DNA from: Callorhinchus milii
Lineage: Eukaryota
Length of the DNA stretch: 52,272 nt
Assembly: GCF_018977255.1 (NCBI RefSeq)
Contig: NW_024705351.1
Coordinates: 1-52,272 of the forward strand
Reading direction: 5' to 3'
The notes beneath the pieces are model-generated. The model saw only the letters and a list, made by a program, of their open reading frames with translations. It made no database searches and was not told the DNA's origin. This document shows, piece by piece, positions 1 to 29,723 of the stretch (its first letter is position 1; every line of letters begins with the position of its first letter). Made by a program: the position numbers and the translations under genes.

Positions 1-334
1 CCGTTGGAGAGGACACGGTCATCACCCCGAAACAAGCATGAGAAGATCAGCAAAATAGGGAAGTGAAATCAAAAGGTGAAAACAAAGTGCTGCAATGAGT
101 CCTGAAAAAAATGCATCTTTCGAACCTATGCAGGTGGATCCTGAGAGATGCGTGGATGTAGTGGATGTAATGAGTCCTGACGACAATTCCTTTTCGACCC
201 CATGCAGTTGGATCCTGCGAGATGGCTGGATGTACTGAGCCCTGACGCCAATTCTTTTCGACCCCATGCAGGTTGATAATGAGAAATGGCTGCTGGAGTG
301 GCTGGATAATCAAAGTATTGAGTACTTCTGTTAA
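1..334 (+). CDS. 3' end of ZF gene copy 1 (type A tail), truncated by window edge, with small indels
   Basis: Matches 5378-5716 ([15 protein letters not shown]...SIEYFC*) apart from single-base losses in homopolymer runs. Confidence 0.8.
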
Positions 335-4402: not shown

Positions 4403-4438
4403 TATAAGGGGCTTAAAATCAGACCTCAAGGTCATTTC
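4403..4438 (+). promoter_or_regulatory. TATA box plus initiator (type A copy)
   Basis: TATAAGG at 4403 and TCATTTC with its A at 4434, 31 bp downstream, which is canonical TATA-Inr spacing. Confidence 0.55.
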
Positions 4439-4812
4439 GAGAGGGATTTTGCTGAGGATAGACGCTCGACTCCCCGCTCTGCAGATAACCCTTCTTCCAC
4501 GAGACCCAGCCTGGCGAGCACGATTGCTTGGCGACTGGTTGGCGACTTCGCTTCGGGAGAGTTCGTGGCGATCTCTTCAGACGGGTTACAGGGACATCGA
4601 TATGCGGTGCATCAACAAGTAAGTGTCTTTGTTAGTGGATAAACTGGTAAACGCGTGTGTAGTCCGACTTAGGAGACGTTACTGTGTCTCAGTTAGACGT
4701 TGGTAAGAGTTTGCTTCTTGGCGATTTAAGCCAGACATCCACGCACCTTAGAGGTCGCCTTTAACTCTCAACAACACCCGCGACTGTTACTCTGCTCTGA
4801 AGAATCAGTCAC

Positions 4813-5716
4813 ATGGAGCGGAAAAACTCTCCACAGCGGCACGCACACACGGGCGAGAAGCGGTTCAATTGCTCTCTTTGTGGGAAGGCATTTGCAGATT
4901 CATCAAATCGTAACCGTCACCAGAAAACACACACGGGCGAAAAGCCATTCAATTGCTCTGTTTGTGAGAAGTCATTTTCACAGAAATCAAATCTTCACAC
5001 TCACCAAAAAACAACTCGGGTGAGAAGCCATTCGATTGCTCTGTGTGTGGGAAGGCATTTTCACTGAAACAAATCTTCACACTCACCAGAAAACACACTC
5101 AGGTGAGAAGCCATTCAGTTGCTCTGTGTGTGGGAAGGCATTTTCACAGAAATCAACTCTTCACAGTCACCAAAAAACACACACGGGTGAGAAGCCATTC
5201 CATTGCGCTGTGTGTGGGAAGTCATTTTCACAGAAATCAAATCTTCACACTCACCAGAAAACACACACGGGTGAGAAGCCATTCAATTGTTCTGTGTGTG
5301 GGAAGGCATTTTCACAGAAATCAACTCTTAACAATCACCAGAAAACACACACGGACGAGAAGCTATTCAATTGTTCTCCGTTGGAGAGGACACGGTCATC
5401 ACCCCGAAACAAGCATGAGAAGATCAGCAAAAATAGGGAAGTGAAATCAAAAAGTGAAAAACAAAGTGCTGCAATGAGTCCTGAAAAAAATGCATCTATC
5501 GAACCTATGCAGGAGGATCCTGAGAGATGCGTGGATGTAGTGGATGTAATGAGTCCTGACGACAATTCCTTTTTCGACCCCATGCAGTTGGATCCTGCGA
5601 GATGGCTGGATGTACTGAGCCCTGACGCCAATTCTTTTTTCGACCCCATGCAGGTTGATAATGAGAAATGGCTGCTGGAGTGGCTGGATAATCAAAGTAT
5701 TGAGTACTTCTGTTAA
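4813..5716 (+). CDS. C2H2 ZF gene copy 2, type A, 6 fingers plus acidic repeat tail (frameshifts near 5010-5070)
   Basis: ORFs 4813..5067 and 5036..5716. CxxC-x12-HxxxH fingers with HTGEKPF linkers. Helices DSSNRNR, QKSNLHT, (LKSNLHT after frameshift repair), [21 protein letters not shown]. Confidence 0.85.
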
Positions 5717-7195
5717 AGTCCTGGAATGTGCACGTTTGTGTCTCTGTTAGATCAATGTATTAGGTGCAATTGATTATATCAGTGATTTCCAGCACTACTC
5801 CAAGCTAGTGTAATTATTTTAACAAAACTGTTTGATTGCTCTGAGTGTTGGAAGCATTTTCACGGTCAGCAACACTTCACAGGCATCATCAAACAAAGAG
5901 TAAAAATGTTGTCATGAGTCCTAAACGAAATTCCTCTTTCGACCCCATGCAGTTGCATCCTGAGAGAGCTAGAGTGATGTTGTGAATGCTCTATAATGTG
6001 TTCAGATGAATGTTTCCTTTTAAGTTCCAGAAGTATTCACTGATTTCAGAATGACAACAATTTTATACTTTGGACGAATGGCTTCAGTCGAAAAGGACGT
6101 CAAAGGGGAAATCGACGTTTACGTGTTTGATTTTAAGAATATCTTTTAACTGTTGAATTCCTATTGGAAATAATTTGCCTAGTTCCTTTCCTGTTTGAGC
6201 CTGCGTATTAATAAAGATTTCGATACGAGTATTAACGTGAGTTTTCTTGCATATTAATAAAGACCTGATTTGTTTTTAAAGATGACTGATCGTACGTTAT
6301 TGCAACCATATTTTCCTTTAAAAAAACACGGACGAGGAGACATACACACACGAGTGTGCATCCAAACACGACTGTATATACAGCGGTGTGCATTCACACA
6401 CGAGTGTGCATGTGTTTCTACGAGTTTTAACGTTAATATACTTGCAGAACAATAAAGACCTGCTATGTTAAAGATGACTGATCGTCCCTTATTGCTACAA
6501 TGTTCATAGCGAACACGTGTGGAGGCGAGTTTCAGGTGAAGCATCTCCATCACACAAGTTTACCCTTACCTGGGCAGCATCGTGGCAGTCCGCTGGTCAC
6601 ACTCACTACGTCACACTCACGAGCTGTAGGGGCGGGGCTCTGTCTGCTCAGTGGCGCTGTTTTCATTCATTTAGCACCACGAGCGGGGAGTCTCATTCCT
6701 ATCACATTGCCGCTAAATTCTTTGTACGACACAATATAAAAATAATTTGTTCGTTCGAATATGCACAATCATACACGAGTACACATATACACTCCATATA
6801 CACAGACCCACACACGAGTGGACATACACAGCGCTGTAGAAACATACACGAATGTGCATACACACTGCTTCATACATACACACACGGGTGCACATGCATA
6901 CAAGTGCGCATGCACACACGAGTGTACATACACAGCAGTGTACGTACAAAGGGATTACGTTCTACTACACGAACAAATGTGCGAACAAATGATTGTACAT
7001 ACCTATACACCCAAATTCACGCATGTACATATCCACATCAACGAGTGTAAATAAACACACGAGTGGACATACACAGAAGTACAGATCCATGTACATACAA
7101 ACAGTAGTATACTTGGATAGCGGGGTTTTGTGATTATTTTCACAGGTTAAGCTGACGATATGGATTTTAGATGCCCCACAACAATTATTAACAAT

Positions 7196-7290
7196 TTTTT
7201 TTACATTTAAAGCTTTCGTGACTGCAGGGATTCATCTTCTTGGTTCTTTCGGTAAAGTCACGTGACTTTACCGAAAGAACCAAGAAGATG
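7196..7290 (-). mobile_element. 95-bp palindromic insertion with 13-bp TSD (Penelope-like pLTR end fragment)
   Basis: AATTATTAACAAT flanks both sides (7183-7195, 7291-7303) and occurs once at the empty site in unit 1 (~1807). Perfect spacerless 64-bp palindrome at 7230-7293. Same sequence as the end of the element at 43821. Confidence 0.8.
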
Positions 7291-7990
7291 AATTATTAAC
7301 AATATTAGGAATATTGGCCTCATATTTAATGAGTGTATTGAAGTCATAGGTTGCCATTGCTACGGCACACTGGTTCGGATTATTCTTCCCATTTATGAAA
7401 TCTCGCTAGAATCATTTGCATTTTATTCATGAACTTATTTGCATTCAATTGCTATTCACGGTACTAAAGCTCCTCATATCTAGCAACATACCTAAGCTTT
7501 GTGCTTAAGCCTAAGTAGGAATATGCTGAATCATCGTTCGCTTCCGTTTGAATACGGATGGGCATCTCCTTGAATAATTATGTGCATGTTGTTAGTTTGC
7601 ACATTTACAATGGCCTGTAAGCTGTAATCAATTTATCGGCTTTATCTGTGAAAATAAGTATAAAATGTTGCAATGCTGATAGAGATATACTAAGAGGTGC
7701 ATGCTTTATTGCGTGGTGACTAGGTTTCATGGATATTTTTGAGGACTCTTGTTGATGAAGGTGTGTCTAGACAACGAAGGTTATTTGTTATATTCGATCA
7801 GTTAAAAAGTGTTACCATTGCTGTTTTTTTACCCATCTGGATGGTTAATTTTTTTATCGTTGTTTGTTATTTTGTAACGCAACCATTATTACATTTCAGT
7901 CTATAGCATAAAGTGTCTTGTGTATTTTCACTGCTGTGCATTAACAGTGCTGTGTGTATGTATGCGTGTATATATTTTGCACGTGTTTTC

Positions 7991-8748
7991 ATGGTAAATG
8001 CATTGCATGTGGAGAAGTTACCAGCCCTTCGCACCTGTCCAGAGACCTCGTGGGCCGCTGTGGTGGCTACGAGCCTTCCCTCCAGGACATTGCTCACATC
8101 CACCACAGCGTTACCGTCCGGCATCGCCGATGAGGTAGGGGGGTTGTTTTTACAGAACTTTACTCGTGTGTAGGGGAATCCCAAACAACAGGGAGAGCAG
8201 CTCTTCTTCTGAACAAATTAATGAAGGAGCATAGAACCGTCACGGTGAGCTGTGGGAAGCTGTATGCCCCAGGCATGGAGTGGTGGTTGTTCCTTCCTGC
8301 ACTGAAGGTGAACATCAGTGTAGAAATGCAGGCAAGGCTGATTAGTCATATGCCTTTCATAATATCCAGTATTTGAATCACACTGGGCTCGAATGCATAC
8401 ATTTTGTATGTAGCTATAATGGTACCAGATATGCGAGCTGCGGGATTTAAATTGCATTATAATCACTAGTATCACATTGTGGTCGTATTAGAATCACACT
8501 ATCCACTGCTGTATCTGCCCTCTCAATGGATTCGTATATACATATGTACAGAGTATGATTATTTGAAGTTTATGTATTGATTCTTTAAATGTTGATTTCC
8601 TGAAAGCTTCCGCGGTGCCGGCCGGTAACGCTGCGGTGGATGTGAGCAATGTCCTGGAGGGAAGTCTCGTAGCCACCACAGAGGCCCACGAGGTCTCTGG
8701 ACGGGTGCGAGGCGCTGGTAACCTCTCCATAGTCAATGCAATTATCAT
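7991..8748. repeat. Same inverted repeat pair in the second long unit
   Basis: 7991-8127 versus 8612-8748. Confidence 0.85.
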
Positions 8749-8994
8749 TAAAAAAAAAATATTAAACACATACACACGAGTTTAACACGTAGGATTTCGG
8801 GACCAATATCATCCATAATAGAGGTTGTTAGGTTAGATCGCTGAAGTATATAAATGTGTCTTTAAAATAAAACATTAAATAAATGCATGCCGACAAATGG
8901 CAGCATACTTCAATAGAGCGCAGCTGCGTGGACAACACATCTATGCTTCTATATAAGCAACTAAACAGTGAGACTTCCCAAATCTGATTGTCGA

Positions 8995-9029
8995 CTGATG
9001 AAGCTAGTTTGAATTACAGGCGAAACGTC
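8995..9029 (+). ncRNA. Hammerhead-like motif, second long unit
   Basis: CTGATGAAGCTAGTTTGAATTACAGGCGAAACGTC. Confidence 0.5.
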
Positions 9030-10050
9030 GTACTCAGAATGTAAATGTTGTGGCTTGGCTCTCCAACACACCGGTGTGCTGTACTAGTGACACATTTGCA
9101 TGTTCTGTTTACGTGACAACCCTAACTAGTTGGCTTTGTCGGGTGGTGGCGGGTTTCAACGACACATTTGTATTTTTAAGCGTTCTAACCCAAAAAACCT
9201 TTAATGTGGACATGATAATAAACCACGCTTACAAGCTAAACCATTCAGATGATTATTAAAAGTTCATGGCAGAATTTTTAACATAAAACACTCGTTTTCT
9301 AGAAGCACCCCGCTCAACACGATTGTCCTTAAATATATTTATAAAACAAAGTCAGTACAGTATAAACTTGCACATCTTATTCCAAATCAAGCTCGAGATC
9401 ACCAATTTTGATACTTCAGACTGTATGTCACTTTATCATCCTCTAAACTTGCAGCAGTTTAGAGGACATTGGGGGTGAATATTAGCAAATTAACACGAAT
9501 CATGGAATTATGCATAGAGATGCACATCCGTATTCAAACGGAAGTGTACAATTATTCAGTGATATGTACATACGTATTATGTTGCTAGATATGCGGATTG
9601 TTAATGTAAAAATTAACAATTGAATGCAAAGTCCATAATAGGCCAAGTCGAGAACAAAGAATTTGGATGCTAGAGCGGAATTATAAAGGGCTTAAAATCA
9701 GACCTCAAGGGCATTTCGAGAGGGATTTTGATGAGCATAGACGCTCGACTCCCCGCTCTGCAGATAACCCTTCTTCCACGAGACCCAGCCTGGCGAGCAC
9801 GATTGCTTGGCGACTGGTTGGGGACTTTGCTTCGGGAGAGTTCGTGGCGATCTCTTCAGACGGGTTACAGGGACATCGATACGCCGTGCATCAACAAGTA
9901 AGTGTCTTTGTTAGTGGATAAACTGGTAATCGCGTGTGTATTCCGACTTCCGAGACGTTACTGTGACTCGGTTAAACGTTAGTGAGAGTTGTTTTTTGGC
10001 GATTTGAGCCAGACATCCACGAAGTTTCTCTGCTCTGAAAAATCAGTCAC

Positions 10051-11029
10051 ATGGAGCAGAAAAACTCTCCACAGCGGCACGCACACACGGGTAAGAAGCC
10101 ATTCAATTGCGCTGTGTGCGGGAAGGCATTTGCAGATTCATCAACTCTTCGCAATCACCAAAAACACACTCGGGTGAGAAGCCATTCAATTGCTCTGTTT
10201 GTGTGAAGGCATTTGCCCGTAAAGCAGATCTTCACACTCACCAAAAACACACACGGGCGAGAAGCCGTTCAATTGCGCTGTGTGCTGGAAGGCATTTGCA
10301 CGGAAATCAGATCTTCACAAGCACCAGAAAACACACACGGGCGAGAAGCCGTTCAATTGCTCTGTGTGTGGGAAGTCATTTGCAGATTCATCAACTCATC
10401 ACAAGCACCAGAAAACACACACGGGCGAGAAGCCGTTCAATTGCTCTGTGTGCGGGAAGTCATTTGCAGATTCATCAACTCTTCGCAATCACCAAAAAAC
10501 ACACTCGGGTGAGAAGCCATTCAATTGCTCTGTTTGTGTGAAGGCATTTGCCCGTAAAGCAGATCTTCACACTCACCAAAAAACACACACGGGCGAGAAG
10601 CCGTTCAATTGCTCTCTGTGTGGGAAGCCATTTTCACGGAAATCAAATCTTCATCGTCACCAGGAAACACACACGGACGATAAGCCATTCAATTGTTCTC
10701 CGTTGGAGAGGACACGGTCATCACCCCGAAACAAGCATAAGAAGATCCGCAATGATAGGAAAGTGAAATCAAAAGGAGAAATACAGAGTGCTGCAATGAG
10801 TCCTGAAAAAAATGCATCTTTCGAACCTATGCAGGTGGATCCTGAGAGATGCATGGATGTAATGAGTCCTGACGACAATTCCTATTTCGACCCCATGCAG
10901 TTGGATCCTGCGAGATGGCTGGATGTACTGAGCCCTGACGACAATTCCTATTTCGACCCCATGCAGGTTGATAATGAGAAATGGCTGCTGGAGTGGCTGG
11001 ATAATCAAAGTACTGAGAACTTCTGTTAA
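10051..11029 (+). CDS. C2H2 ZF gene copy 3, type B, 7 fingers (A-run frameshifts)
   Basis: ATG at 10051. ORF 10280..11029 matches the intact copy at 30942. Confidence 0.85.
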
Positions 11030-12876
11030 AGTCCTGGAATGTGCACGTTTGTTTCTCTGTTAGATCAATGTATTAGGTGCAATTGATAATATCAGTGATT
11101 TCCAGCACTACTCCAACCTAGTGTAATTATTTTAACAAAACCGTTTGATTGCTCTGTGTGTTGGAAGCATTTTCACAGTCAGTAACACTTCACAGGCATC
11201 ATCAAACAAAGAGTAAAAATGTTGTCATGAGTCCTCAACGAAATTCCTCTTTCGACCCCATGCAGTTGCATCCTGAGATATGGCTTGATGTAGTGGAGTA
11301 TTCGTGTCTCATATATATTTTTCGGTGATTTCTAGGACTTCAAGCTAGAGTGATGTTGTGAATGCTCTATAATGTGTTCAGATGAATGTCTTCCTTTAAG
11401 TTCCAGAAGTGTTCACGGATTTCAGAATGACAACAATTTTATACTTTGGACGAATGGCTTCAGTCGAAAAGGACGTCAAAGGGAAATCGACGTTTACGTG
11501 TTTGATTTTAAGAATATATTTTAACTGTTGAATTCCTATTGGGAAATAATTTGCCTAGTTCCTTTCCTGTTTGAGCCTGCGTATTAATAAAGATTTCGAT
11601 ACGATTATACGAGTATTAACGTGAGCTTTCTTGCAGATTAATAAAGACCTGTTTTTAAAGATGACTGATCGTACGTTATTGCTACCATAGTTTTCCTTAA
11701 AAAAACACGGACGAGTAGACATACACACACGAGTGTGCATCCAAACACGACTGTATATACAGCGGTGTGCATTCACACACGAGTGTGCATGTGTTTCTAC
11801 GCTGTTTTCATTCATTTCGCACCACGAGCGGGGAGTCTCATCCCTGTAGTTCCCTGTTGTGGTGGCGCATTCCTACCACGTTGCCCCTCAATTATTACGT
11901 TTCCCTTAAATGATTTGTACGACACAATATAAAAATAATTTGTTTGTTCCAATACATAATCATACACGAGTACACATATACACTCCCATGTACACACACC
12001 CACACACGAGTGGACATACACAGCAGTGTAAGTACAAAGGGATTGCGTTCGACTACGCGAACAAATGCAGAATTTTTAATATAAAACACTCGTTTTCTAG
12101 AAACACCCCGCTCAACACGATTGTACTTAAATATATTTATAAAACAAAGTCAGTACAGTATAAACTTGCACATCTTATTCCAAATCAAGCTCGAGATCAC
12201 CAATTTTGATACTTCAGACTGTATGTCACTTTATCATCCTCTAAACTTGCAGCAGTTTAGAGGACATTGGGGGTGAATATTAGCAAATTAACACGAATCA
12301 TGGAATTATGCATAGAGATGCACATCCGTATTCAAACGGAAGTGTACAATTATTCAGTGATATGTACATACGTATTATGTTGCTAGATATGCGGATTGTT
12401 AATGTAAAAATTAACAATTGAATGCAAATTCCATAATAGGCCAAGTCGAGAACAAAGAATTTGGATGCTAGAGCGGAATTATAAAGGGCTTAAAATCAGA
12501 CCTCAAGGGCATTTCGAGAGGGATTTTGATGAGCATAGACGCTCGACTCCCCGCTCTGCAGATAACCCTTCTTCCACGAGACCCAGCCTGGCGAGCACGA
12601 TTGCTTGGCGACTGGTTGGGGACTTTGCTTCGGGAGAGTTCGTGGCGATCTCTTCAGACGGGTTACAGGGACATCGATACGCCGTGCATCAACAAGTAAG
12701 TGTCTTTGTTAGTGGATAAACTGGTAATCGCGTGTGTATTCCGACTTCCGAGACGTTACTGTGACTCGGTTAAACGTTAGTGAGAGTTGTTTTTTGGCGA
12801 TTTGAGCCAGACATCCACGAACCTTAGAGGTCGCCTTTAACTCTCAACAACACCCGCGACTGTTTCTCTGCTCTGA

Positions 12877-14336
<1,460 letters not shown>

Positions 14337-16130
14337 AGTCCTGGAATGTGCACGTTTGTTTCTCTGTTAGATCAATGTATTAGGTGCAATTGATAATATC
14401 AGTGATTTCCAGCACTACTCCAACCTAGTGTAATTATTTTAACAAAACCGTTTGATTGCTCTGTGTGTTGGAAGCATTTTCACAGTCAGTAACACTTCAC
14501 AGGCATCATCAAACAAAGAGTAAAAATGTTGTCATGAGTCCTCAACGAAATTCCTCTTTCGACCCCATGCAGTTGCATCCTGAGATATGGCTTGATGTAG
14601 TGGAGTATTCGTGTCTCATATATATTTTTCGGTGATTTCTAGGACTTCAAGCTAGAGTGATGTTGTGAATGCTCTATAATGTGTTCAGATGAATGTCTTC
14701 CTTTAAGTTCCAGAAGTGTTCACGGATTTCAGAATGACAACAATTTTATACTTTGGACGAATGGCTTCAGTCGAAAAGGACGTCAAAGAGGAAATCGACG
14801 TTTACGTGTTTGATTTTAAGAATATATTTTAACTGTTGAATTCCTATTGGGAAATAATTTGCCTAGTTCCTTTCCTGTTTGAGCATGCGTATTAATAAAG
14901 ATTTCGATACGAGTATTAACGTGAGCTTTCTTGCAGATTAATAAAGACCTGTTTTTAAAGATGACTGATCGTACGTTATTGCTACCATAGTTTTCCTTTA
15001 AAAAAACACGGACGAGTAGACATACACACACGAGTGTGCATCCAAACACGACTGTATATACAGCGGTGTGCATTCACACACGAGTGTGCATGTGTTTCTA
15101 CGCTGTTTTCATTCATTTCGCACCACGAGCGGGGAGTCTCATCCCTGTAGTTCCCTGTTGTGGTGGCGCATTCCTACCACGTTGCCCCTCAATTATTTGT
15201 ACGACACAATATAAAAATAATTTGTTTGTTCCAATACATAATCATACACGAGTACACATACACTCTCATGTACACACACCCACACACGAGTGGACATACA
15301 CAGCAGTGTAAGTACAAAGGGATTGCGTTCGACTACGCGAACAAATGGCAGAATTTTTAATATAAAACACTCGTTTTCTAGAAACACCCCGCTCAACACG
15401 ATTGTACTTAAATATATTTATAAAACAAAGTCAGTACAGTATAAACTTGCACATCTTATTCCAAATCAAGCTCGAGATCACCAATTTTGATACTTCAGAC
15501 TGTATGTCACTTTATCATCCTCTAAACTTGCAGCAGTTTAGAGGACATTGGGGGGTGAATATTAGCAAATTAACACGAATCATGGAATTATGCATAGAGA
15601 TGCACATCCGTATTCAAACGGAAGTGTACAATTATTCAGTGATATGTACATACGTATTATGTTGCTAGATATGCGGATTGTTAATGTAAAAATTAACAAT
15701 TGAATGCAAATTCCATAATAGGCCAAGTCGAGAACAAAGAATTTGGATGCTAGAGCGGAATTATAAAGGGCTTAAAATCAGACCTCAAGGGCATTTCGAG
15801 AGGGATTTTGATGAGCATAGACGCTCGACTCCCCGCTCTGCAGATAACCCTTCTTCCACGAGACCCAGCCTGGCGAGCACGATTGCTTGGCGACTGGTTG
15901 GGGACTTTGCTTCGGGAGAGTTCGTGGCGATCTCTTCAGACGGGTTACAGGGACATCGATACGCCGTGCATCAACAAGTAAGTGTCTTTGTTAGTGGATA
16001 AACTGGTAATCGCGTGTGTATTCCGACTTCCGAGACGTTACTGTGACTCGGTTAGACGTTAGTGAGAGTTGCTTTTTGGCGATTTGAGCCAGACATCCAC
16101 GAAGTTTCTCTGCTCTGAAAAATCAGTCAC

Positions 16131-17670
16131 ATGGAGCAGAAAAACTCTCCACAGCGGCACGCACACACGGGTAAGAAGCCATTCAATTGCGCTGTGTGCG
16201 GGAAGGCATTTGCAGATTCATCAACTCTTCGCAATCACCAAAAAACACACTCGGGTGAGAAGCCATTCAATTGCTCTGTTTGTGTGAAGGCATTTGCCCG
16301 TAAAGCAGATCTTCACACTCACCAAAAACACACACGGGCGAGAAGCCGTTCAATTGCGCTGTGTGCTGGAAGGCATTTGCACGGAAATCAGATCTTCACA
16401 AGCACCAGAAAACACACACGGGCGAGAAGCCGTTCCATTGCTCTGTGTGTGGGAAGTCATTTGCAGATTCATCAACTCATCACAAGCACCAGAAAACACA
16501 CACGGGCGAGAAGCCGTTCAATTGCTCTGTGTGCGGGAAGTCATTTGCAGATTCATCAACTCTTCGCAATCACCAAAAAACACACACGGGTGAGAAGCCA
16601 TTCAATTGCTCTGTTTGTGTGAAGGCATTTGCCCGTAAAGCAGATCTTCACACTCACCAAAACACACACACGGGCGAGAAGCCGTTCAATTGCGCTGTGT
16701 GCTGGAAGGCATTTGCAGATTCATCAACTCATCACAAGCACCAGAAAACACACACGGGCGAGAAGCCGTTCAATTGCTCTGTGTGTGGAAGTCATTTGCA
16801 GATTCATCAACTCTTCACAAGCACCAGAAAACACACACGGGCGAGAAGCCGTTCAATTGCTCTGTGTGGGTGAAGGCATTTGCCCGTAAAGCAGATCTTC
16901 ACACTCACCAAAAGCATACTGCACATGTGTGAAGCATTTGTCACGAAAGCAGATCTTCACAAGCACCAAAAACACACACGGGCGAGAAGCCGTTCAATTG
17001 CTCTGTGTGTGGGAAGTCATTTGCAGATTCATCAACTCATCACAAGCACCAGAAAACACACACGGGCGAGAAGCCGTTCAATTGCTCTGTGTGCGGGAAG
17101 TCATTTGCAGATTCATCAACTCTTCGCAATCACCAAAAAACACACTCGGGTGAGAAGCCATTCAATTGCTCTGTTTGTGTGAAGGCATTTGCCCGTAAAG
17201 CAGATCTTCACACTCACCAAAAAACACACACGGGCGAGAAGCCGTTCAATTGCTCTCTGTGTGGGAAGCCATTTTCACGGAAATCAAATCTTCATCGTCA
17301 CCAGGAAACACACACGGACGATAAGCCATTCAATTGTTCTCCGTTGGAGAGGACACGGTCATCACCCCGAAACAAGCATAAGAAGATCCGCAATGATAGG
17401 AAAGTGAAATCAAAAGGAGAAATACAGAGTGCTGCAATGAGTCCTGAAAAAAATGCATCTTTCGAACCTATGCAGGTGGATCCTGAGAGATGCATGGATG
17501 TAATGAGTCCTGACGACAATTCCTATTTCGACCCCATGCAGTTGGATCCTGCGAGATGGCTGGATGTACTGAGCCCTGACGACAATTCCTATTTCGACCC
17601 CATGCAGGTTGATAATGAGAAATGGCTGCTGGAGTGGCTGGATAATCAAAGTACTGAGAACTTCTGTTAA
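16131..17670 (+). CDS. ZF gene copy 5, type B, expanded to ~13-14 fingers, several indels
   Basis: 1540 bp. ORFs 16131..16622, 16361..16873 and 17005..17670. Confidence 0.72.
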
Positions 17671-19464
17671 AGTCCTGGAATGTGCACGTTTGTTTCTCTG
17701 TTAGATCAATGTATTAGGTGCAATTGATAATATCAGTGATTTCCAGCACTACTCCAACCTAGTGTAATTATTTTAACAAAACCGTTTGATTGCTCTGTGT
17801 GTTGGAAGCATTTTCACAGTCAGTAACACTTCACAGGCATCATCAAACAAAGAGTAAAAATGTTGTCATGAGTCCTCAACGAAATTCCTCTTTCGACCCC
17901 ATGCAGTTGCATCCTGAGATATGGCTTGATGTAGTGGAGTATTCGTGTCTCATATATATTTTTCGGTGATTTCTAGGACTTCAAGCTAGAGTGATGTTGT
18001 GAATGCTCTATAATGTGTTCAGATGAATGTCTTCCTTTAAGTTCCAGAAGTGTTCACGGATTTCAGAATGACAACAATTTTATACTTTGGACGAATGGCT
18101 TCAGTCGAAAAGGACGTCAAAGAGGAAATCGACGTTTACGTGTTTGATTTTAAGAATATATTTTAACTGTTGAATTCCTATTGGGAAATAATTTGCCTAG
18201 TTCCTTTCCTGTTTGAGCATGCGTATTAATAAAGATTTCGATACGAGTATTAACGTGAGCTTTCTTGCAGATTAATAAAGACCTGTTTTTAAAGATGACT
18301 GATCGTACGTTATTGCTACCATAGTTTTCCTTTAAAAAAACACGGACGAGTAGACATACACACACGAGTGTGCATCCAAACACGACTGTATATACAGCGG
18401 TGTGCATTCACACACGAGTGTGCATGTGTTTCTACGCTGTTTTCATTCATTTCGCACCACGAGCGGGGAGTCTCATCCCTGTAGTTCCCTGTTGTGGTGG
18501 CGCATTCCTACCACGTTGCCCCTCAATTATTTGTACGACACAATATAAAAATAATTTGTTTGTTCCAATACATAATCATACACGAGTACACATACACTCT
18601 CATGTACACACACCCACACACGAGTGGACATACACAGCAGTGTAAGTACAAAGGGATTGCGTTCGACTACGCGAACAAATGGCAGAATTTTTAATATAAA
18701 ACACTCGTTTTCTAGAAACACCCCGCTCAACACGATTGTACTTAAATATATTTATAAAACAAAGTCAGTACAGTATAAACTTGCACATCTTATTCCAAAT
18801 CAAGCTCGAGATCACCAATTTTGATACTTCAGACTGTATGTCACTTTATCATCCTCTAAACTTGCAGCAGTTTAGAGGACATTGGGGGGTGAATATTAGC
18901 AAATTAACACGAATCATGGAATTATGCATAGAGATGCACATCCGTATTCAAACGGAAGTGTACAATTATTCAGTGATATGTACATACGTATTATGTTGCT
19001 AGATATGCGGATTGTTAATGTAAAAATTAACAATTGAATGCAAATTCCATAATAGGCCAAGTCGAGAACAAAGAATTTGGATGCTAGAGCGGAATTATAA
19101 AGGGCTTAAAATCAGACCTCAAGGGCATTTCGAGAGGGATTTTGATGAGCATAGACGCTCGACTCCCCGCTCTGCAGATAACCCTTCTTCCACGAGACCC
19201 AGCCTGGCGAGCACGATTGCTTGGCGACTGGTTGGGGACTTTGCTTCGGGAGAGTTCGTGGCGATCTCTTCAGACGGGTTACAGGGACATCGATACGCCG
19301 TGCATCAACAAGTAAGTGTCTTTGTTAGTGGATAAACTGGTAATCGCGTGTGTATTCCGACTTCCGAGACGTTACTGTGACTCGGTTAGACGTTAGTGAG
19401 AGTTGCTTTTTGGCGATTTGAGCCAGACATCCACGAAGTTTCTCTGCTCTGAAAAATCAGTCAC

Positions 19465-20684
<1,220 letters not shown>

Positions 20685-22475
20685 AGTCCTGGAATGTGCA
20701 CGTTTGTTCTCTGTTAGATCAATGTATTAGGTGCAATTGATATATCAGTGATTTCCAGCACTACTCCAACCTAGTGTAATTATTTTAACAAAACCGTTTG
20801 ATTGCTCTGTGTGTTGGAAGCATTTTCACAGTCAGTAACACTTCACAGGCATCATCAAACAAAGAGTAAAAATGTTGTCATGAGTCCTCAACGAAATTCC
20901 TCTTTCGACCCCATGCAGTTGCATCCTGAGATATGGCTTGATGTAGTGGAGTATTCGTGTCTCATATATATTTTTCGGTGATTTCTAGGACTTCAAGCTA
21001 GAGTGATGTTGTGAATGCTCTATAATGTGTTCAGATGAATGTCTTCCTTTAAGTTCCAGAAGTGTTCACGGATTTCAGAATGACAACAATTTTATACTTT
21101 GGACGAATGGCTTCAGTCGAAAAGGACGTCAAAGGGGAAATCGACGTTTACGTGTTTGATTTTAAGAATATATTTTAACTGTTGAATTCCTATTGGGAAA
21201 TAATTTGCCTAGTTCCTTTCCTGTTTGAGCCTGCGTATTAATAAAGATTTCGATACGAGTATTAACGTGAGCTTTCTTGCAGATTAATAAAGACCTGTTT
21301 TTAAAGATGACTGATCGTACGTTATTGCTACCATAGTTTTCCTTTAAAAAACACGGACGAGTAGACATACACACACGAGTGTGCATCCAAACACGACTGT
21401 ATATACAGCGGTGTGCATTCACACACGAGTGTGCATGTGTTTCTACGCTGTTTTCATTCATTTCGCACCACGAGCGGGGAGTCTCATCCCTGTAGTTCCC
21501 TGTTGTGGTGGCGCATTCCTACCACGTTGCCCCTCAATTATTTGTACGACACAATATAAAAATAATTTGTTTGTTCCAATACATAATCATACACGAGTAC
21601 ACATACACTCTCATGTACACACACCCACACACGAGTGGACATACACAGCAGTGTAAGTACAAAGGGATTGCGTTCGACTACGCGAACAAATGGCAGAATT
21701 TTTAATATAAAACACTCGTTTTCTAGAAACACCCCGCTCAACACGATTGTACTTAAATATATTTATAAAACAAAGTCAGTACAGTATAAACTTGCACATC
21801 TTATTCCAAATCAAGCTCGAGATCACCAATTTTGATACTTCAGACTGTATGTCACTTTATCATCCTCTAAACTTGCAGCAGTTTAGAGGACATTGGGGGG
21901 TGAATATTAGCAAATTAACACGAATCATGGAATTATGCATAGAGATGCACATCCGTATTCAAACGGAAGTGTACAATTATTCAGTGATATGTACATACGT
22001 ATTATGTTGCTAGATATGCGGATTGTTAATGTAAAAATTAACAATTGAATGCAAATTCCATAATAGGCCAAGTCGAGAACAAAGAATTTGGATGCTAGAG
22101 CGGAATTATAAAGGGCTTAAAATCAGACCTCAAGGGCATTTCGAGAGGGATTTTGATGAGCATAGACGCTCGACTCCCCGCTCTGCAGATAACCCTTCTT
22201 CCACGAGACCCAGCCTGGCGAGCACGATTGCTTGGCGACTGGTTGGGGACTTTGCTTCGGGAGAGTTCGTGGCGATCTCTTCAGACGGGTTACAGGGACA
22301 TCGATACGCCGTGCATCAACAAGTAAGTGTCTTTGTTAGTGGATAAACTGGTAATCGCGTGTGTATTCCGACTTCCGAGACGTTACTGTGACTCGGTTAA
22401 ACGTTAGTGAGAGTTGCTTTTTGGCGATTTGAGCCAGACATCCACGAAGTTTCTCTGCTCTGAAAAATCAGTCAC

Positions 22476-23571
<1,096 letters not shown>

Positions 23572-25361
23572 AGTCCTGGAATGTGCACGTTTGTTTCTCT
23601 GTTAGATCAATGTATTAGGTGCAATTGATATATCAGTGATTTCCAGCACTACTCCAACCTAGTGTAATTATTTTAACAAAACCGTTTGATTGCTCTGTGT
23701 GTTGGAAGCATTTTCACAGTCAGTAACACTTCACAGGCATCATCAAACAAAGAGTAAAAATGTTGTCATGAGTCCTCAACGAAATTCCTCTTTCGACCCC
23801 ATGCAGTTGCATCCTGAGATATGGCTTGATGTAGTGGAGTATTCGTGTCTCATATATATTTTTCGGTGATTTCTAGGACTTCAAGCTAGAGTGATGTTGT
23901 GAATGCTCTATAATGTGTTCAGATGAATGTCTTCCTTTAAGTTCGAGAAGTGTTCACGGATTTCAGAATGACAACAATTTTATACTTAGGACGAATGGCT
24001 TCAGTCGAAAAGGACGTCAAAGGGGAAATCGACGTTTACGTGTTTGATTTTAAGAATATATTTTAACTGTTGAATTCCTATTGGGAAATAATTTGCCTAG
24101 TTCCTTTCCTGTTTGAGCATGCGTATTAATAAAGATTTCGATACGAGTATTAACGTGAGCTTTCTTGCAGATTAATAAAGACCTGTTTTTAAAGATGACT
24201 CATCGTACGTTATTGCTACCATAGTTTTCCTTTAAAAAACACGGACGAGTAGACATACACACACGAGTGTGCATCCAAACACGACTGTATATACAGCGGT
24301 GTGCATTCACACACGAGTGTGCATGTGTTTCTACGCTGTTTTCATTCATTTCGCACCACGAGCGGGGAGTCTCATCCCTGTAGTTCCCTGTTGTGGTGGC
24401 GCATTCCTACCACGTTGCCCCTCAATTATTTGTACGACACAATATAAAAATAATTTGTTTGTTCCAATACATAATCATACACGAGTACACATACACTCTC
24501 ATGTACACACACCCACACACGAGTGGACATACACAGCAGTGTAAGTACAAAGGGATTGCGTTCGACTACACGAACAAATGGCAGAATTTTTAATATAAAA
24601 CACTCGTTTTCTAGAAACACCCCGCTCAACACGATTGTCCTTAAATATATTTATAAAACAAAGTCAGTACAGTATAAACTTGCACATCTTATTCCAAATC
24701 AAGCTCGAGATCACCAATTTTGATACTTCAGACTGTATGTCACTTTATCATCCTCTAAACTTGCAGCAGTTTAGAGGACATTGGGGGTGAATATTAGCAA
24801 ATTAACACGAATCATGGAATTATGCATAGAGATGCACATCCGTATTCAAACGGAAGTGTACAATTATTCAGTGATATGTACATACGTATTATGTTGCTAG
24901 ATATGCGGATTGTTAATGTAAAAATTAACAATTGAATGCAAATTCCATAATAGGCCAAGTCGAGAACAAAGAATTTGGATGCTAGAGCAGAATTATAAAG
25001 GGCTTAAAATCAGACCTCAAGGGCATTTCGAGAGGGATTTTGATGAGCATAGACGCTCGACTCCCCGCTCTGCAGATAACCCTTCTTCCACGAGACCCAG
25101 CCTGGCGAGCACGATTGCTTGGCGACTGGTTGGGGACTTTGCTTCGGGAGAGTTCGTGGCGATCTCTTCAGACGGGTTACAGGGACATCGATACGCCGTG
25201 CATCAACAAGTAAGTGTCTTTGTTAGTGGATAAACTGGTAATCGCGTGTGTATTCCGACTTCCGAGACGTTACTGTGACTCGGTTAACGTTAGTGAGAGT
25301 TGCTTTTTGGCGATTTGAGCCAGACATCCACGAAGTTTCTCTGCTCTGAAAAATCAGTCAC

Positions 25362-26341
25362 ATGGAGCAGAAAAACTCTCCACAGCGGCACGCACACACG
25401 GGTAAGAAGCCATTCAATTGCGCTGTGTGCGGGAAGGCATTTGCAGATTCATCAACTCTTCGCAATCACCAAAAAACACACTCGGGTGAGAAGCCATTCA
25501 ATTGCTCTGTTTGTGTGAAGGCATTTGCCCGTAAAGCAGATCTTCACACTCACCAAAAACACACACGGGCGAGAAGCCGTTCAATTGCGCTGTGTGCTGG
25601 AAGGCATTTGCACGGAAATCAGATCTTCACAAGCACCAGAAAACACACACGGGCGAGAAGCCGTTCAATTGCTCTGTGTGTGGGAAGTCATTTGCAGATT
25701 CATCAACTCATCACAAGCACCAGAAAACACACACGGGCGAGAAGCCGTTCAATTGCTCTGTGTGCGGGAAGTCATTTGCAGATTCATCAACTCTTCGCAA
25801 TCACCAAAAAACACACTCGGGTGAGAAGCCATTCAATTGCTCTGTTTGTGTGAAGGCATTTGCCCGTAAAGCAGATCTTCACACTCACCAAAAAACACAC
25901 ACGGGCGAGAAGCCGTTCAATTGCTCTCTGTGTGGGAAGCCATTTTCACGGAAATCAAATCTTCATCGTCACCAGGAAACACACACGGACGATAAGCCAT
26001 TCAATTGTTCTCCGTTGGAGAGGACACGGTCATCACCCCGAAACAAGCATGAGAAGATCCGCAATGATAGGAAAGTGAAATCAAAAGGAGAAATACAGAG
26101 TGCTGCAATGAGTCCTGAAAAAAATGCATCTTTCGAACCTATGCAGGTGGATCCTGAGAGATGCATGGATGTAATGAGTCCTGACGACAATTCCTATTTC
26201 GACCCCATGCAGTTGGATCCTGCGAGATGGCTGGATGTACTGAGCCCTGACGACAATTCCTATTTCGACCCCATGCAGGTTGATAATGAGAAATGGCTGC
26301 TGGAGTGGCTGGATAATCAAAGTATTGAGAACTTCTGTTAA
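25362..26341 (+). CDS. ZF gene copy 8, type B, 7 fingers (single A-run frameshift)
   Basis: ORFs 25362..25853 and 25592..26341. 980 bp versus 981 bp intact. Confidence 0.85.
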
Positions 26342-27622
26342 AGTCCTGGAATGTGCACGTTTGTTTCTCTGTTAGATCAATGTATTAGGTGCAATTGATA
26401 ATATCAGTGATTTCCAGCACTACTCCAACCTAGTGTAATTCTTTTAACAAAACCGTTTGATTGCTCTGTGTGTTGGAAGCATTTTCACAGTCAGTAACAC
26501 TTCACAGGCATCATCAAACAAAGAGTAAAAATGTTGTCATGAGTCCTCAACGAAATTCCTCTTTCGACCCCATGCAGTTGCATCCTGAGATATGGCTTGA
26601 TGTAGTGGAGTATTCGTGTCTCATATATATTTTTCGGTGATTTCTAGGACTTCAAGCTAGAGTGATGTTGTGAATGCTCTATAATGTGTTCAGATGAATG
26701 TCTTCCTTTAAGTTCCAGAAGTGTTCACGGATTTCAGAATGACAACAATTTTATACTTTGGACGAATGGCTTCAGTCGAAAAGGACGTCAAAGGGAAATC
26801 GACGTTTACGTGTTTGATTTTAAGAATATATTTTAACTGTTGAATTCCTATTGGGAAATAATTTGCCTAGTTCCTTTCCTGTTTGAGCATGCGTATTAAT
26901 AAAGATTTCGATACGAGTATTAACGTGAGCTTTCTTGCAGATTAATAAAGACCTGTTTTTAAAGATGACTGATCGTACGTTATTGCTACCATAGTTTTCC
27001 TTTAAAAAACACGGACGAGTAGACATACACACACGAGTGTGCATCCAAACACGACTGTATATACAGCGGTGTGCATTCACACACGAGTGTGCATGTGTTT
27101 CTACGCTGTTTTCATTCATTTCGCACCACGAGCGGGGAGTCTCATCCCTGTAGTTCCCTGTTGTGGTGGCGCATTCCTACCACGTTGCCCCTCAATTATT
27201 TGTACGACACAATATAAAAATAATTTGTTTGTTCCAATACATAATCATACACGAGTACACAAATACACTCCATGTACACACACCCACACACGAGTGGACA
27301 TACACAGCAGTGTAAGTACAAAGGGATTGCGTTCGACTACGCGAACAAATGGCAGAATTTTTAATATAAAACACTCGTTTTCTAGAAACACCCCGCTCAA
27401 CACGATTGTACTTAAATATATTTATAAAACAAAGTCAGTACAGTATAAACTTGCACATCTTATTCCAAATCAAGCTCGAGATCACCAATTTTGATACTTC
27501 AGACTGTATGTCACTTTATCATCCTCTAAACTTGCAGCAGTTTAGAGGACATTGGGGGGTGAATATTAGCAAATTAACACGAATCATGGAATTATGCATA
27601 GAGATGCACATCCGTATTCAAA

Positions 27623-27801
27623 CGGAAGTGTACAATTATTCAGTGATATGTACATACGTATTATGTTGCTAGATATGCGGATTGTTAATGTAAAAATTAA
27701 CAATTGAATGCAAATTCCATAATAGGCCAAGTCGAGAACAAAGAATTTGGATGCTAGAGCAGAATTATAAAGGGCTTAAAATCAGACCTCAAGGGCATTT
27801 C
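27623..27801 (+). promoter_or_regulatory. Proximal promoter of type B units (example copy 9): ETS, Sox-like, octamer, TATA, Inr-like
   Basis: CGGAAGTG 27623, ATTGTT 27681, AACAAT 27699, ATGCAAAT 27708, TATAAA 27766, GCATTTC with A at 27797 (31 bp after TATA). Repeated in nearly every short unit. Confidence 0.5.
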
Positions 27802-27981
27802 GAGAGGGATTTTGATGAGCATAGACGCTCGACTCCCCGCTCTGCAGATAACCCTTCTTCCACGAGACCCAGCCTGGCGAGCACGATTGCTTGGCGACTG
27901 GTTGGGGACTTTGCTTCGGGAGAGTTCGTGGCGATCTCTTCAGACGGGTTACAGGGACATCGATACGCCGTGCATCAACAA

Positions 27982-28130
27982 GTAAGTGTCTTTGTTAGTG
28001 GATAAACTGGTAATCGCGTGTGTATTCCGACTTCCGAGACGTTACTGTGACTCGGTTAGACGTTAGTGAGAGTTGCTTTTTGGCGATTTGAGCCAGACAT
28101 CCACGAAGTTTCTCTGCTCTGAAAAATCAG
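27982..28130 (+). other. Probable 5' intron (example copy 9; 4619-4808 in copy 2)
   Basis: Consensus donor CAA|GTAAGT in all complete copies. Candidate acceptors TTTCTCTGCTCTGAAAAATCAG (ends 28130) or CTCTCCACAG (ends 28158). Confidence 0.6.
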
Positions 28131-28134
28131 TCAC

Positions 28135-29115
28135 ATGGAGCAGAAAAACTCTCCACAGCGGCACGCACACACGGGTAAGAAGCCATTCAATTGCGCTGTG
28201 TGCGGGAAGGCATTTGCAGATTCATCAACTCTTCGCAATCACCAAAAAACACACTCGGGTGAGAAGCCATTCAATTGCTCTGTTTGTGTGAAGGCATTTG
28301 CCCGTAAAGCAGATCTTCACACTCACCAAAAAACACACACGGGCGAGAAGCCGTTCAATTGCGCTGTGTGCTGGAAGGCATTTGCACGGAAATCAGATCT
28401 TCACAAGCACCAGAAAACACACACGGGCGAGAAGCCGTTCAATTGCTCTGTGTGTGGGAAGTCATTTGCAGATTCATCAACTCATCACAAGCACCAGAAA
28501 ACACACACGGGCGAGAAGCCGTTCAATTGCTCTGTGTGCGGGAAGTCATTTGCAGATTCATCAACTCTTCGCAATCACCAAAAAACACACTCGGGTGAGA
28601 AGCCATTCAATTGCTCTGTTTGTGTGAAGGCATTTGCCCGTAAAGCAGATCTTCACACTCACCAAAACACACACATGGGCGAGAAGCCGTTCAATTGCTC
28701 TCTGTGTGGGAAGCCATTTTCACGGAAATCAAATCTTCATCGTCACCAGGAAACACACACGGACGATAAGCCATTCAATTGTTCTCCGTTGGAGAGGACA
28801 CGGTCATCACCCCGAAACAAGCATGAGAAGATCCGCAATGATAGGAAAGTGAAATCAAAAGGAGAAATACAGAGTGCTGCAATGAGTCCTGAAAAAAATG
28901 CATCTTTCGAACCTATGCAGGTGGATCCTGAGAGATGCATGGATGTAATGAGTCCTGACGACAATTCCTATTTCGACCCCATGCAGTTGGATCCTGCGAG
29001 ATGGCTGGATGTACTGAGCCCTGACGACAATTCCTATTTCGACCCCATGCAGGTTGATAATGAGAAATGGCTGCTGGAGTGGCTGGATAATCAAAGTATT
29101 GAGAACTTCTGTTAA
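28135..29115 (+). CDS. ZF gene copy 9, type B, intact 326 aa: 7 C2H2 fingers, basic NLS-like region, 3x22-aa acidic tail
   Basis: Uninterrupted ORF. Helices DSSTLRN, RKADLHT, RKSDLHK, DSSTHHK, DSSTLRN, RKADLHT, RKSNLHR. The true N-terminus may differ if splicing adds an upstream exon. Confidence 0.93.
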   Translation: MEQKNSPQRHAHTGKKPFNCAVCGKAFADSSTLRNHQKTHSGEKPFNCSVCVKAFARKADLHTHQKTHTGEKPFNCAVCWKAFARKSDLHKHQKTHTGEKPFNCSVCGKSFADSSTHHKHQKTHTGEKPFNCSVCGKSFADSSTLRNHQKTHSGEKPFNCSVCVKAFARKADLHTHQNTHMGEKPFNCSLCGKPFSRKSNLHRHQETHTDDKPFNCSPLERTRSSPRNKHEKIRNDRKVKSKGEIQSAAMSPEKNASFEPMQVDPERCMDVMSPDDNSYFDPMQLDPARWLDVLSPDDNSYFDPMQVDNEKWLLEWLDNQSIENFC

Positions 29116-29223
29116 AGTCCTGGAATGTGCACGTTTGTGTCTCTGTTAGATCAATGTATTAGGTGCAATTGATTATATCAGTGATTTCCAGCACTACTCC
29201 AACCTAGTGTAATTCTTTTAACA

Positions 29224-29383
29224 AAACCGTTTGATTGCTCTGTGTGTTGGAAGCATTTTCACAGTCAGTAACACTTCACAGGCATCATCAAACAAAGAGT
29301 AAAAATGTTGTCATGAGTCCTCAACGAAATTCCTCTTTCGACCCCATGCAGTTGCATCCTGAGATATGGCTTGATGTAGTGGA
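29224..29383 (+). pseudogene. Fossil finger-plus-tail duplicate downstream of the stop codon (present in every complete unit)
   Basis: Reads [24 protein letters not shown]...MSPQRNSSFDPMQLHPEIWLDVV with one frameshift shared by the copies. Confidence 0.8.
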
Positions 29384-29671
29384 GTATTCGTGTCTCATAT
29401 ATATTTTTCGGTGATTTCTAGGACTTCAAGCTAGAGTGATGTTGTGAATGCTCTATAATGTGTTCAGATGAATGTCTTCCTTTAAGTTCCAGAAGTGTTC
29501 ACGGATTTCAGAATGACAACAATTTTATACTTTGGACGAATGGCTTCAGTCGAAAAGGACGTCAAAGGGAAATCGACGTTTACGTGTTTGATTTTAAGAA
29601 TATATTTTAACTGTTGAATTCCTATTGGGAAATAATTTGCCTAGTTCCTTTCCTGTTTGAGCATGCGTATT

Positions 29672-29723
29672 AATAAAGATTTCGATACGAGTATTAACGT
29701 GAGCTTTCTTGCAGATTAATAAA
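29672..29723 (+). terminator. Tandem AATAAA polyadenylation signals (example copy 9)
   Basis: AATAAA at 29672 and 29718, ~560-600 bp after the stop and conserved across units. Confidence 0.5.

What the first reader, a model, noticed from the sequence alone, without database searches (positions are those of the whole stretch)
4813..11029. Type A versus type B fingers differ at DNA-contact positions while scaffold and tail are conserved (PRDM9-like pattern)
Type A helices are mostly Q(-1)/N or T(+3) (QKSNLHT, QKSTLHS). Type B are R(-1)/D(+3) or D(-1)/T(+3) (RKADLHT, RKSDLHK, DSSTLRN, RKSNLHR). Linkers, tail and flanks stay highly similar. By the canonical recognition code, type A would prefer A-rich triplets and type B nCG/GAG triplets, so the amplified type would read CpG-rich and possibly methylation-sensitive DNA. 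This suggests specificity switching under selection.
Basis: partly seen in the sequence, partly recalled or inferred. Interest (0 to 1): 0.7.

Follow-up and report, generated by a model that had tools for sequence, protein, structure and literature searches.

The report
Lamprey zinc-finger radiation, likely PRDM9-derived
The two finger 'types' are real but are just two mixes from a shared pool of DNA-reading zinc fingers in a large gene family that is most likely lamprey DNA misfiled in a jawed fish's assembly; their DNA-touching residues change about three times faster than silent sites, as in the family's other branches, and the family likely arose from the last exon of the recombination gene PRDM9 and likely acts as a set of transcription regulators.

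Summary
The helices are as described. A-versus-B differences peak at -1/+3/+6 (top triple of 1,540); contact dN/dS is about 3 and scaffold 0.2. But there is no A-to-B switch. Within-B divergence equals A-vs-B (3.6 vs 3.7), and 16 of 49 non-B paralogues mix both finger kinds. Related arrays elsewhere in the assembly give the same 3.0. By Baker's PRDM9 statistic A and B score 0.32, below the background median (0.37) and sea-lamprey PRDM9 (0.37-0.47). No PR/SET or SSXRD lies in the units. B is one allele amplified into 15 near-identical 2.8-kb tandem units. The contig is very likely lamprey DNA in a jawed-vertebrate assembly: named tail relatives are all lamprey, it shares no host repeats, and the assembly holds a lamprey mitogenome. 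New here: a KRAB-less lamprey radiation whose main branch keeps a remnant of the PRDM9 last-exon leader, with SUMO-motif tails in that branch and acidic-aromatic tails in this one. Targets, expression and methylation sensitivity are untested. The scan noted this finger pattern before in other genomes, and lamprey DNA in this one.

The parts
1..334 (+). 3' end (tail) of a further non-B family unit, cut by the contig start
   Evidence: 93% to the B tail, 98% to the A tail
4403..4808 (+). Type A predicted promoter and leader: TATA-like box 4403, initiator-like CATTTC ~4433, probably non-coding exon 1, GTAAGT donor 4619, intron to acceptor 4808
   Evidence: Motifs kept in A, B and the 75%-identical sister subfamily; no spliced read seen, so predicted only
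4813..5365 (+). Type A start (MERKNSP) and six 84-bp C2H2 fingers (4864-5365), two 1-nt frameshifts
5366..5716 (+). Type A acidic-aromatic tail with three 22-25-aa repeats
   Evidence: the B version of the tail has no Pfam family
7291..8989 (.). 1.7-kb spacer segment, 99.7% identical to 1806-3504, present between the non-B units only
   Evidence: its matches lie only on small contigs
9682..10046 (+). First type B unit, predicted promoter and leader: TATA-like 9682, initiator ~9712, donor 9898, acceptor 10046
   Evidence: predicted only
10051..10687 (+). Type B start (MEQKNSP) and seven fingers, three of them R(-1)/D(+3); two 1-nt deletions in A-runs
10688..11029 (+). Type B acidic-aromatic tail: 18 D/E, 4 K/R, 3 W in the last 76 aa; no psi-K-x-E motif; predicted disordered with a terminal amphipathic helix
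   Evidence: measured on the copy ending at 29115
9682..52200 (+). Head-to-tail array of 15 type B units, period 2.77-3.33 kb; eight compared units differ by 0.4% on average; units ending 14336, 17670, 20684 and 23571 have longer, rearranged finger arrays
28141..29115 (+). Intact type B open reading frame (324 aa)
30948..31922 (+). Second intact type B open reading frame
29233..29400 (+). Degenerate finger plus one tail-repeat remnant in the predicted 3' UTR (recurs behind the other units)
43827..44104 (.). ~280-bp palindromic insertion (89-bp arms) in the 3' flank, shared by five adjacent B units (also 35182-35463, 38094-38348, 46754-47029, 49809-50052); marks a sub-lineage amplified after the insertion

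Best explanation
The window is a tandem array of small zinc-finger genes, most likely lamprey DNA misfiled in a jawed-vertebrate assembly, whose members draw different combinations from one pool of 84-bp finger units and likely act as sequence-specific transcription regulators, with an acidic tail predicted to be an activation domain. Shown: the shared finger pool, the excess of amino-acid change at -1/+3/+6, the recent amplification of one allele (type B), and the absence of PRDM9's catalytic parts from the units. Inferred: unequal crossing-over and gene conversion shuffle the fingers and homogenise the scaffold, while selection favours new contact residues across the whole radiation, not at an A-to-B step. 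Inferred: the radiation descends from the last exon of lamprey PRDM9 and later gained its own C-terminal tails, SUMO-motif-rich in the main branch and acidic-aromatic here. Predicted from the recalled recognition code: type B would read a CpG-rich site (roughly GAG-nCG-nYC-kYC-kCG-nCG-nYC) and prefer it unmethylated.
For: Selection: contact dN/dS 2.99 (2.2-3.8), scaffold 0.22; A x B 3.74, within A 3.45, within B 3.63, related arrays 2.99. Pool: 78 units in 12 contigs; 19 distinct arrays among 20 genes outside the B tail class with at least 4 detected fingers; 16 of 49 non-B units mix Q(-1) with RxxD/DSST fingers. Lamprey origin: 16 of 16 hits to a related tail are lamprey proteins at 52-87%. 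The tail profile finds 9 real hits among 1.84 billion proteins, all named lamprey, plus 2 weak unrelated repeats. The window tail aligns to a Lethenteron protein (46% over 56 aa, E 2e-5). None of the 12 family contigs (368 kb) shares repeats with 20 host stretches, which each share 5-38% with one another. Contig C800 is a second mitogenome with a gene order unlike the host's, and 7 of 7 of its proteins match lamprey records exactly; C17 has an intact RAG1. PRDM9 link: 15 of 15 main-branch leaders beat all 300 shuffles against the PRDM9-like leader; 13 of 17 do so at p<=0.022 on the finger-0 remnant and spacer alone. Finger scaffold identity to PRDM9-like arrays is 82%, against 61% for a host ZF gene.
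Against: The window genes themselves show no significant leader similarity to PRDM9 (z -1.2 and 0.1); the link runs through the main branch, via the shared start and tail head. PRDM9's post-array sequence matches 0 of 5 tails. Gene conversion homogenises synonymous sites, so pairwise dN/dS can be inflated, and the fingers are not independent. In the one raw RNA run with reads, 126 reads were laid: only 2 at 99% or more, in both orientations, including upstream of the predicted start, with no splice joint. Only 2 of 15 B copies are fully open from the ATG. The tail shows no constraint between A and B (pN/pS about 1.1) and moderate constraint against the sister subfamily (0.51). No annotated protein with the window's own tail was found (lengths 178-567 aa only).
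Confidence: 0.62

Rival explanations
1. One reading: a discrete specificity switch from an A-rich-reading type A to a CpG-reading type B was selected, and B was then amplified.
For: A and B differ most at contact sites. Two B helices (RKSDLHK, DSSTHHK) occur in 0 of 49 non-B units. B is the most amplified lineage (26 of 78 units) and exists in independent runs at 99% or more (19 of 63 and 6 of 14 contigs).
Against: Divergence within B equals that between A and B. RxxD fingers occur in 13 of 49 non-B units. A is not shown to be B's ancestor. Amplification of a tandem unit needs no selection.
Confidence: 0.12
2. The radiation works as repressors of transposable elements, like FiNZ-ZNFs and KRAB-ZNFs, and the acidic tail recruits a co-repressor.
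For: Main-branch tails carry 5-7 psi-K-x-E SUMO-consensus motifs (4 of 4 counted). FiNZ is also acidic and its genes repress young transposons (PMC10547256, passages).
Against: The window's branch has 0 such motifs and instead has repeated W/L/F acidic motifs. A degenerate B-site scan gave no clear enrichment in a retrotransposon-bearing contig (10 vs 6.5 and 10 vs 7.5 expected).
Confidence: 0.3
3. The B array is a mostly inert macrosatellite of decaying gene copies, and the selection signal is inherited from older functional fingers.
For: 13 of 15 B copies are frameshifted or 5'-deleted. RNA reads do not match B well and are unspliced. One B finger has lost the +4 leucine.
Against: The breaks in the seven-finger units are mostly short (1-4 nt) deletions in A-runs and TG tracts. 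Two copies of the mitogenome in the same contig class differ by 22 gaps in 13.8 kb, so many breaks are expected from sequencing error. TATA and donor motifs are kept in 16 of 16 units.
Confidence: 0.25
4. The family is native to the jawed host, or was transferred horizontally from a lamprey.
For: The contig is filed in this assembly, and tandem arrays can lack dispersed repeats for other reasons.
Against: Several distinct lamprey subfamilies and a whole lamprey mitogenome are present. The 50-kb non-array part of C574 also lacks host repeats. The spacer matches no contig larger than C193 among the 40 candidates scored.
Confidence: 0.05

Closest known systems
PRDM9 zinc-finger coding minisatellite (Baker et al. 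2017, PMC5519329; sections 10 and 25, passages, supplement 3B rows read)
   Same: 84-bp units with a homogenised scaffold (fingers 82-85% identical; sea-lamprey PRDM9 0.14-0.18 diversity), variable contact residues, shuffled order; the main branch shares the atypical first finger and spacer with the PRDM9-like genes in the same contig class.
   Different: No PR/SET or SSXRD; a multi-copy tandem gene family rather than one locus; Baker statistic 0.32 for A and B against 0.37-0.47 (sea lamprey) and 0.69 (human), though non-B members reach 0.33-0.52; has its own acidic C-terminal tail.
Cyprinid FiNZ-ZNFs and tetrapod KRAB-ZNFs (Wells et al. 2023, PMC10547256; abstract and passages read)
   Same: Lineage-specific, clustered, fast-turnover poly-finger genes with positive selection at base-contacting residues and an acidic accessory segment.
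   Different: The effector segment is C-terminal and in the finger exon; it has no KRAB or other Pfam match; the word lamprey does not occur in that paper's main text.
Lamprey 'zinc finger protein 664-like / OZF-like / uncharacterized' annotations (P0121-P0145); germline-specific ZNF and PRDM9 entries of sea lamprey (PMC10166183, Table S3 rows read)
   Same: Same start motif, finger scaffold and tail head; the sea-lamprey germline-specific list holds 11 zinc-finger entries and one PRDM9.
   Different: The annotated proteins have the SUMO-motif tail, not the window's triple acidic-aromatic tail. Whether the 11 germline entries belong to this family was not tested.
DUX4/Dux macrosatellites (recalled, no call)
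   Same: A 3-kb-scale tandem unit, each carrying a compact transcription-factor gene with an acidic C-terminal end.
   Different: C2H2 fingers instead of homeodomains; no homology; an analogy of layout only.

Membership tests
PRDM9 | PR/SET methyltransferase domain | tested here: not met
   tblastn of PR exons: no hit in 12 family contigs, strong hits in the PRDM9-like contigs; no PR/SET among the 25 Pfam families shown of 30
PRDM9 | SSXRD and KRAB upstream | tested here: not met
   SSXRD-like exon absent from family contigs, present in 5 PRDM9-like contigs. The genome-wide KRAB and SSXRD scans rang nowhere, controls included, so they are uninformative
PRDM9 | Homogenised 84-bp finger minisatellite | tested here: met
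   82-85% identity among fingers of B arrays
PRDM9 | [quoted passage not shown] | tested here: not met
   A 0.32, B 0.32; 37 and 39 of 48 background arrays higher. The background is the best hits of two searches, not all ZF genes
PRDM9 | Meiotic expression and hotspot H3K4me3 | not testable with these tools
   needs testis RNA and ChIP
KRAB-ZNF / FiNZ-ZNF | N-terminal KRAB or FiNZ exon | tested here: not met
   The protein starts 15 aa before finger 1. The upstream ORF has no Pfam hit. The exon-1 ATG is present in 31 of 55 copies and absent from type A. FiNZ was not scanned with a model
Lineage-specific poly-C2H2 radiation | Clustered paralogues with dN/dS above 1 at -1/+3/+6 and a conserved scaffold | tested here: met
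Lineage-specific poly-C2H2 radiation | Binds and silences transposable elements | tested here: inconclusive
   degenerate motif scan too weak
Lamprey germline-restricted genes | Sperm-over-blood read enrichment | not testable with these tools
   run tissues are coded; only the sea-lamprey precedent was read

The most novel reading that the evidence does not exclude
Lampreys built their own KRAB-free zinc-finger radiation from the last exon of PRDM9, independently of tetrapod KRAB-ZNFs, and split it into SUMO-tailed repressors and acidic-tailed activators. The window's branch is a DUX-like tandem activator array that reads unmethylated CpG and sits on, or acts in, the germline-restricted chromosomes removed by programmed genome rearrangement.
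Probability: 0.12. Interest if true: 0.82.

Novelty: new variant of a known kind. Interest (0 to 1): 0.45.

Why it matters
Contact-site diversification in young zinc-finger families is known and would alone be ordinary. Three things add value. (1) It points to a large jawless-vertebrate zinc-finger radiation with effector tails that match no Pfam family; five paper searches on lamprey or elephant-shark zinc-finger expansions and one on lamprey PRDM9 arrays found no description. (2) If the PRDM9 ancestry holds, PRDM9 seeded a regulator family in lampreys by a route that dropped KRAB. (3) About half of a small sample of this assembly's small contigs (11 of 20) share no host repeats, so conclusions about cartilaginous-fish PRDM9 or ZNF counts drawn from unplaced contigs need checking.

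Tried and rejected
No RNA holder was listed by the run search; this is no evidence either way. Run X24 gave 0 reads on the leader (no test). Four runs that hold the unit were laid on the host RAG1 3' flank and showed only a 36-bp piece under 90% identity in two of them; lack of cover is no proof of absence and is not used as evidence. A search for a family recalled as lamprey VLR-specific (PF11921) found nothing and its control did not ring. KRAB and SSXRD genome scans were likewise uninformative. The whole-protein homologue search gave only generic ZF proteins at 62% or less. Exact look-ups of two window proteins, RAG1 and L146 found none in the collection. The protein atlas gave no answer. 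The PDB search with the PRDM9-like finger 0 did not single out human PRDM9 among the 60 of 99 hits shown, so that finger's ancestry in PRDM9 is recalled, not tested. PRDM9's post-array sequence does not match the tails. The predicted B site was not found in the unit's own flank; one half-site was above expectation in lamprey-type random DNA (46 vs 29), probably from GC-rich repeats. Rfam found nothing. The first A-vs-B tail dN/dS was out of frame and was redone. The classification by tail identity misplaced some B-derived units and was redone by promoter identity. My first P statistics used other columns than Baker's; one search uses theirs (11, 12, 15, 18). The finger tree (60 nt per finger) is poorly resolved and violated by conversion; it is not used for direction. 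My early guess that the family was native to the jawed host was dropped.
Full report
1. Observation. The window is a whole 52-kb contig (G000:C610) made of 17 head-to-tail units: a cut tail at 1-334, one 'type A' gene (4813-5716) and 15 'type B' units. A has six fingers, four with Q(-1); its first finger is D(-1). B has seven, three with R(-1)/D(+3), three with D(-1)/T(+3) and one RKSNLHR. A-vs-B differences are greatest at -1, +6 and +3; this is the top triple of 1,540. These three positions hold 31% of the differences, against 28% within B.

2. Selection. Among 30 distinct in-frame fingers seen at least twice (of 83 distinct, 210 in all), contact-site dN/dS is 2.99 (bootstrap over fingers 2.2-3.8) and scaffold dN/dS is 0.22. 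Using all 83 gives 3.02. A x B gives 3.74, within A 3.45 (4 in-frame fingers), within B 3.63. Pooled within-array pairs from related arrays on other contigs give 2.99, and PRDM9-like fingers 3.39. The signal is therefore real but belongs to the whole radiation. Conversion between fingers can depress dS, so the values are upper-leaning. With Baker's columns (11, 12, 15, 18; read from supplement 3B of PMC5519329), A and B both score 0.32. Nine arrays on the other family contigs score 0.33-0.52, 48 background arrays have a median of 0.37, sea-lamprey PRDM9 scores 0.37-0.47 and human 0.69.

3. Not two types. I fetched 11 further contigs named (C1117 and C1605 were not fetched; only 40 of about 315 candidates were scored per search). 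Together they hold 78 units: 26 of the B lineage and 52 others, 49 of these with a detected finger. Of those 49, 30 have Q(-1) fingers, 13 have RxxD fingers and 16 mix Q(-1) with RxxD or DSST fingers. DSSTLRN occurs in 9, RKADLHT in 2 and RKSNLHR in 2; RKSDLHK and DSSTHHK occur in none. B is one combination, recently amplified: eight B units differ by 0.4% on average. The A-B tail is no more conserved than the flanks (pN 0.055, pS 0.048).

4. Gene anatomy (predicted). Each unit has a TATA-like box about 31 bp before an initiator-like CATTTC, a 185-nt first exon, a GTAAGT donor, a short intron, and one coding exon followed by AATAAA. TATA and donor are present in 16 of 16 units and conserved in a 75%-identical sister subfamily. 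The tail is acidic with three W/L/F-rich repeats; AlphaFold models it as disordered with one fairly confident terminal helix (mean pLDDT 58). In RNA run X21, 126 reads were laid, 2 at 99% or more, in both orientations and without a splice joint, so neither the model nor B expression is confirmed. Two of 15 B frames are fully open. Breaks in the seven-finger units are mostly short deletions in A-runs and TG tracts, and the two mitogenome copies in C800 differ by 22 gaps in 13.8 kb, so many breaks are probably sequencing errors.

5. Whose DNA. The large scaffolds are jawed-vertebrate: intact RAG1 on C17 and a mitogenome of the usual vertebrate order (order recalled), C1762. C800 is 2.2 copies of a second mitogenome with the order ND6-Thr-Glu-CYTB-Pro-Phe, and 7 of 7 of its proteins match lamprey records exactly, most labelled Lethenteron. 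Tails of related ZF genes on small contigs hit only lamprey proteins (16 of 16; all 9 real profile hits), and the window tail aligns to one of them. Twenty host stretches each share 5-38% with one another; the 12 family contigs and 59 other small-contig ZF loci share 0 bp with them but do share DNA with 8 of 20 random small contigs. Lamprey contamination is the best reading (about 0.93). An earlier AI note reached the same view for another contig (e1-9950488) and suggested germline-restricted chromosomes. The sea-lamprey germline list has 11 ZF entries and a PRDM9 (PMC10166183 Table S3 rows), but I could not test this family.

6. The wider radiation and PRDM9. The assembly has 4,432 first-look candidates for the double-finger family, and the best are mostly on small contigs. 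Most sampled genes start MEQ, carry an atypical first finger (QCDxCAYSTD) and end in a tail with 5-7 psi-K-x-E motifs. The window's branch and its sister share the start and tail head but have the acidic-aromatic end, and are far less CpG-depleted (window 0.89, sister median 0.84, others 0.51). Nine small contigs carry near-identical or close PR-domain exons. I examined five; C668 has a PR domain closest to human PRDM9 (E 3e-20), a sub-threshold SSXRD match and a finger array. Its last-exon leader (finger 0, spacer, atypical finger 1) aligns with the main-branch leaders: 15 of 15 beat every shuffle and 13 of 17 do so without finger 1. In the radiation the finger-0 remnant lies upstream of the ATG, which suggests PRDM9 was the donor. 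The loci are paralogues, not independent tests, and the window genes have lost the signal. I put derivation at about 0.65.

7. What B would bind. By the recalled canonical code, B reads roughly GAG-nCG-nYC-kYC-kCG-nCG-nYC. A review states that Asp in place of Glu beside the key Arg, as in CTCF ZF7, selects unmodified cytosine (PMC6222495, passages). These fingers lack the usual +2 Asp, and one has lost its +4 Leu. A motif scan was uninformative.

8. Verdict. It works like the finger arrays of PRDM9 and of young KRAB/FiNZ families (PMC10547256, abstract and passages) but is a member of neither. It is a new variant of a known kind: a lamprey KRAB-less radiation with C-terminal tails, not found described in my searches (the T2T lamprey preprint was read in passages only). 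Interest 0.45.

Noticed in passing
G000:C800 (L180, L195-L197): A 35.7-kb contig holds 2.2 tandem copies of a lamprey mitochondrial genome. Its COX1 is patchily host-like (74-96% to the host protein, against mostly 45-78% for other genes), probably from polishing with host reads.
   Followed up: yes
G000:C668, C1096, C936, C1362, C737 (also C1226, C1419, C969, C1143): Multi-copy PRDM9-like genes on small contigs; the five examined lack dispersed host repeats (two share only a low-complexity tract), with PR exons 98-100% identical among four of them and differing finger arrays. Separate PR-domain genes lie on host-type contigs C17, C31, C40 and C84, the last two with fingers.
   Followed up: partly
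L095-L154 (e.g. L116, L127, L146, L151): Main-branch ZF genes with up to 21 fingers end in a lamprey-specific tail of repeated psi-K-x-E motifs and a terminal FVEVEVWVDFL motif, with no Pfam match; a candidate SUMO-dependent repression domain.
   Followed up: partly
G000:C664, C766, C745, C759, C376 (L096-L107, L114, L130, L132): A sister subfamily, in about 3.1-kb tandem units on C664, with one copy of the acidic-aromatic motif and RSSTLQT-type fingers.
   Followed up: partly
window 35182-35463, 38094-38348, 43827-44104, 46754-47029, 49809-50052: A palindromic insertion of about 280 bp in five adjacent B units; it resembles the lamprey Penelope-element stubs of earlier notes. Rfam gave no hit.
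   Followed up: partly
window, first exon of B units (e.g. ~27814): 31 of 55 copies have an ATG in exon 1 that could add about 56 residues in frame if the predicted splice is used; type A lacks it and the sister subfamily does not keep the frame.
   Followed up: partly
20 small contigs sampled at round numbers (L175-L194): 11 share no repeats with host chromosomes, so a large share of the unplaced contigs may be foreign DNA.
   Followed up: partly
L178 (G000:C620) 5295-7922; C574 about 35-41 kb; L190 (C1200) 6367-8840: An unidentified 876-aa ORF whose contig shares DNA with family contig C1067, and retrotransposon-like ORFs on contigs without host repeats.
   Followed up: no
G000:C203:1852-3050: A degenerate COX1 copy, probably a nuclear mitochondrial insertion.
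   Followed up: no
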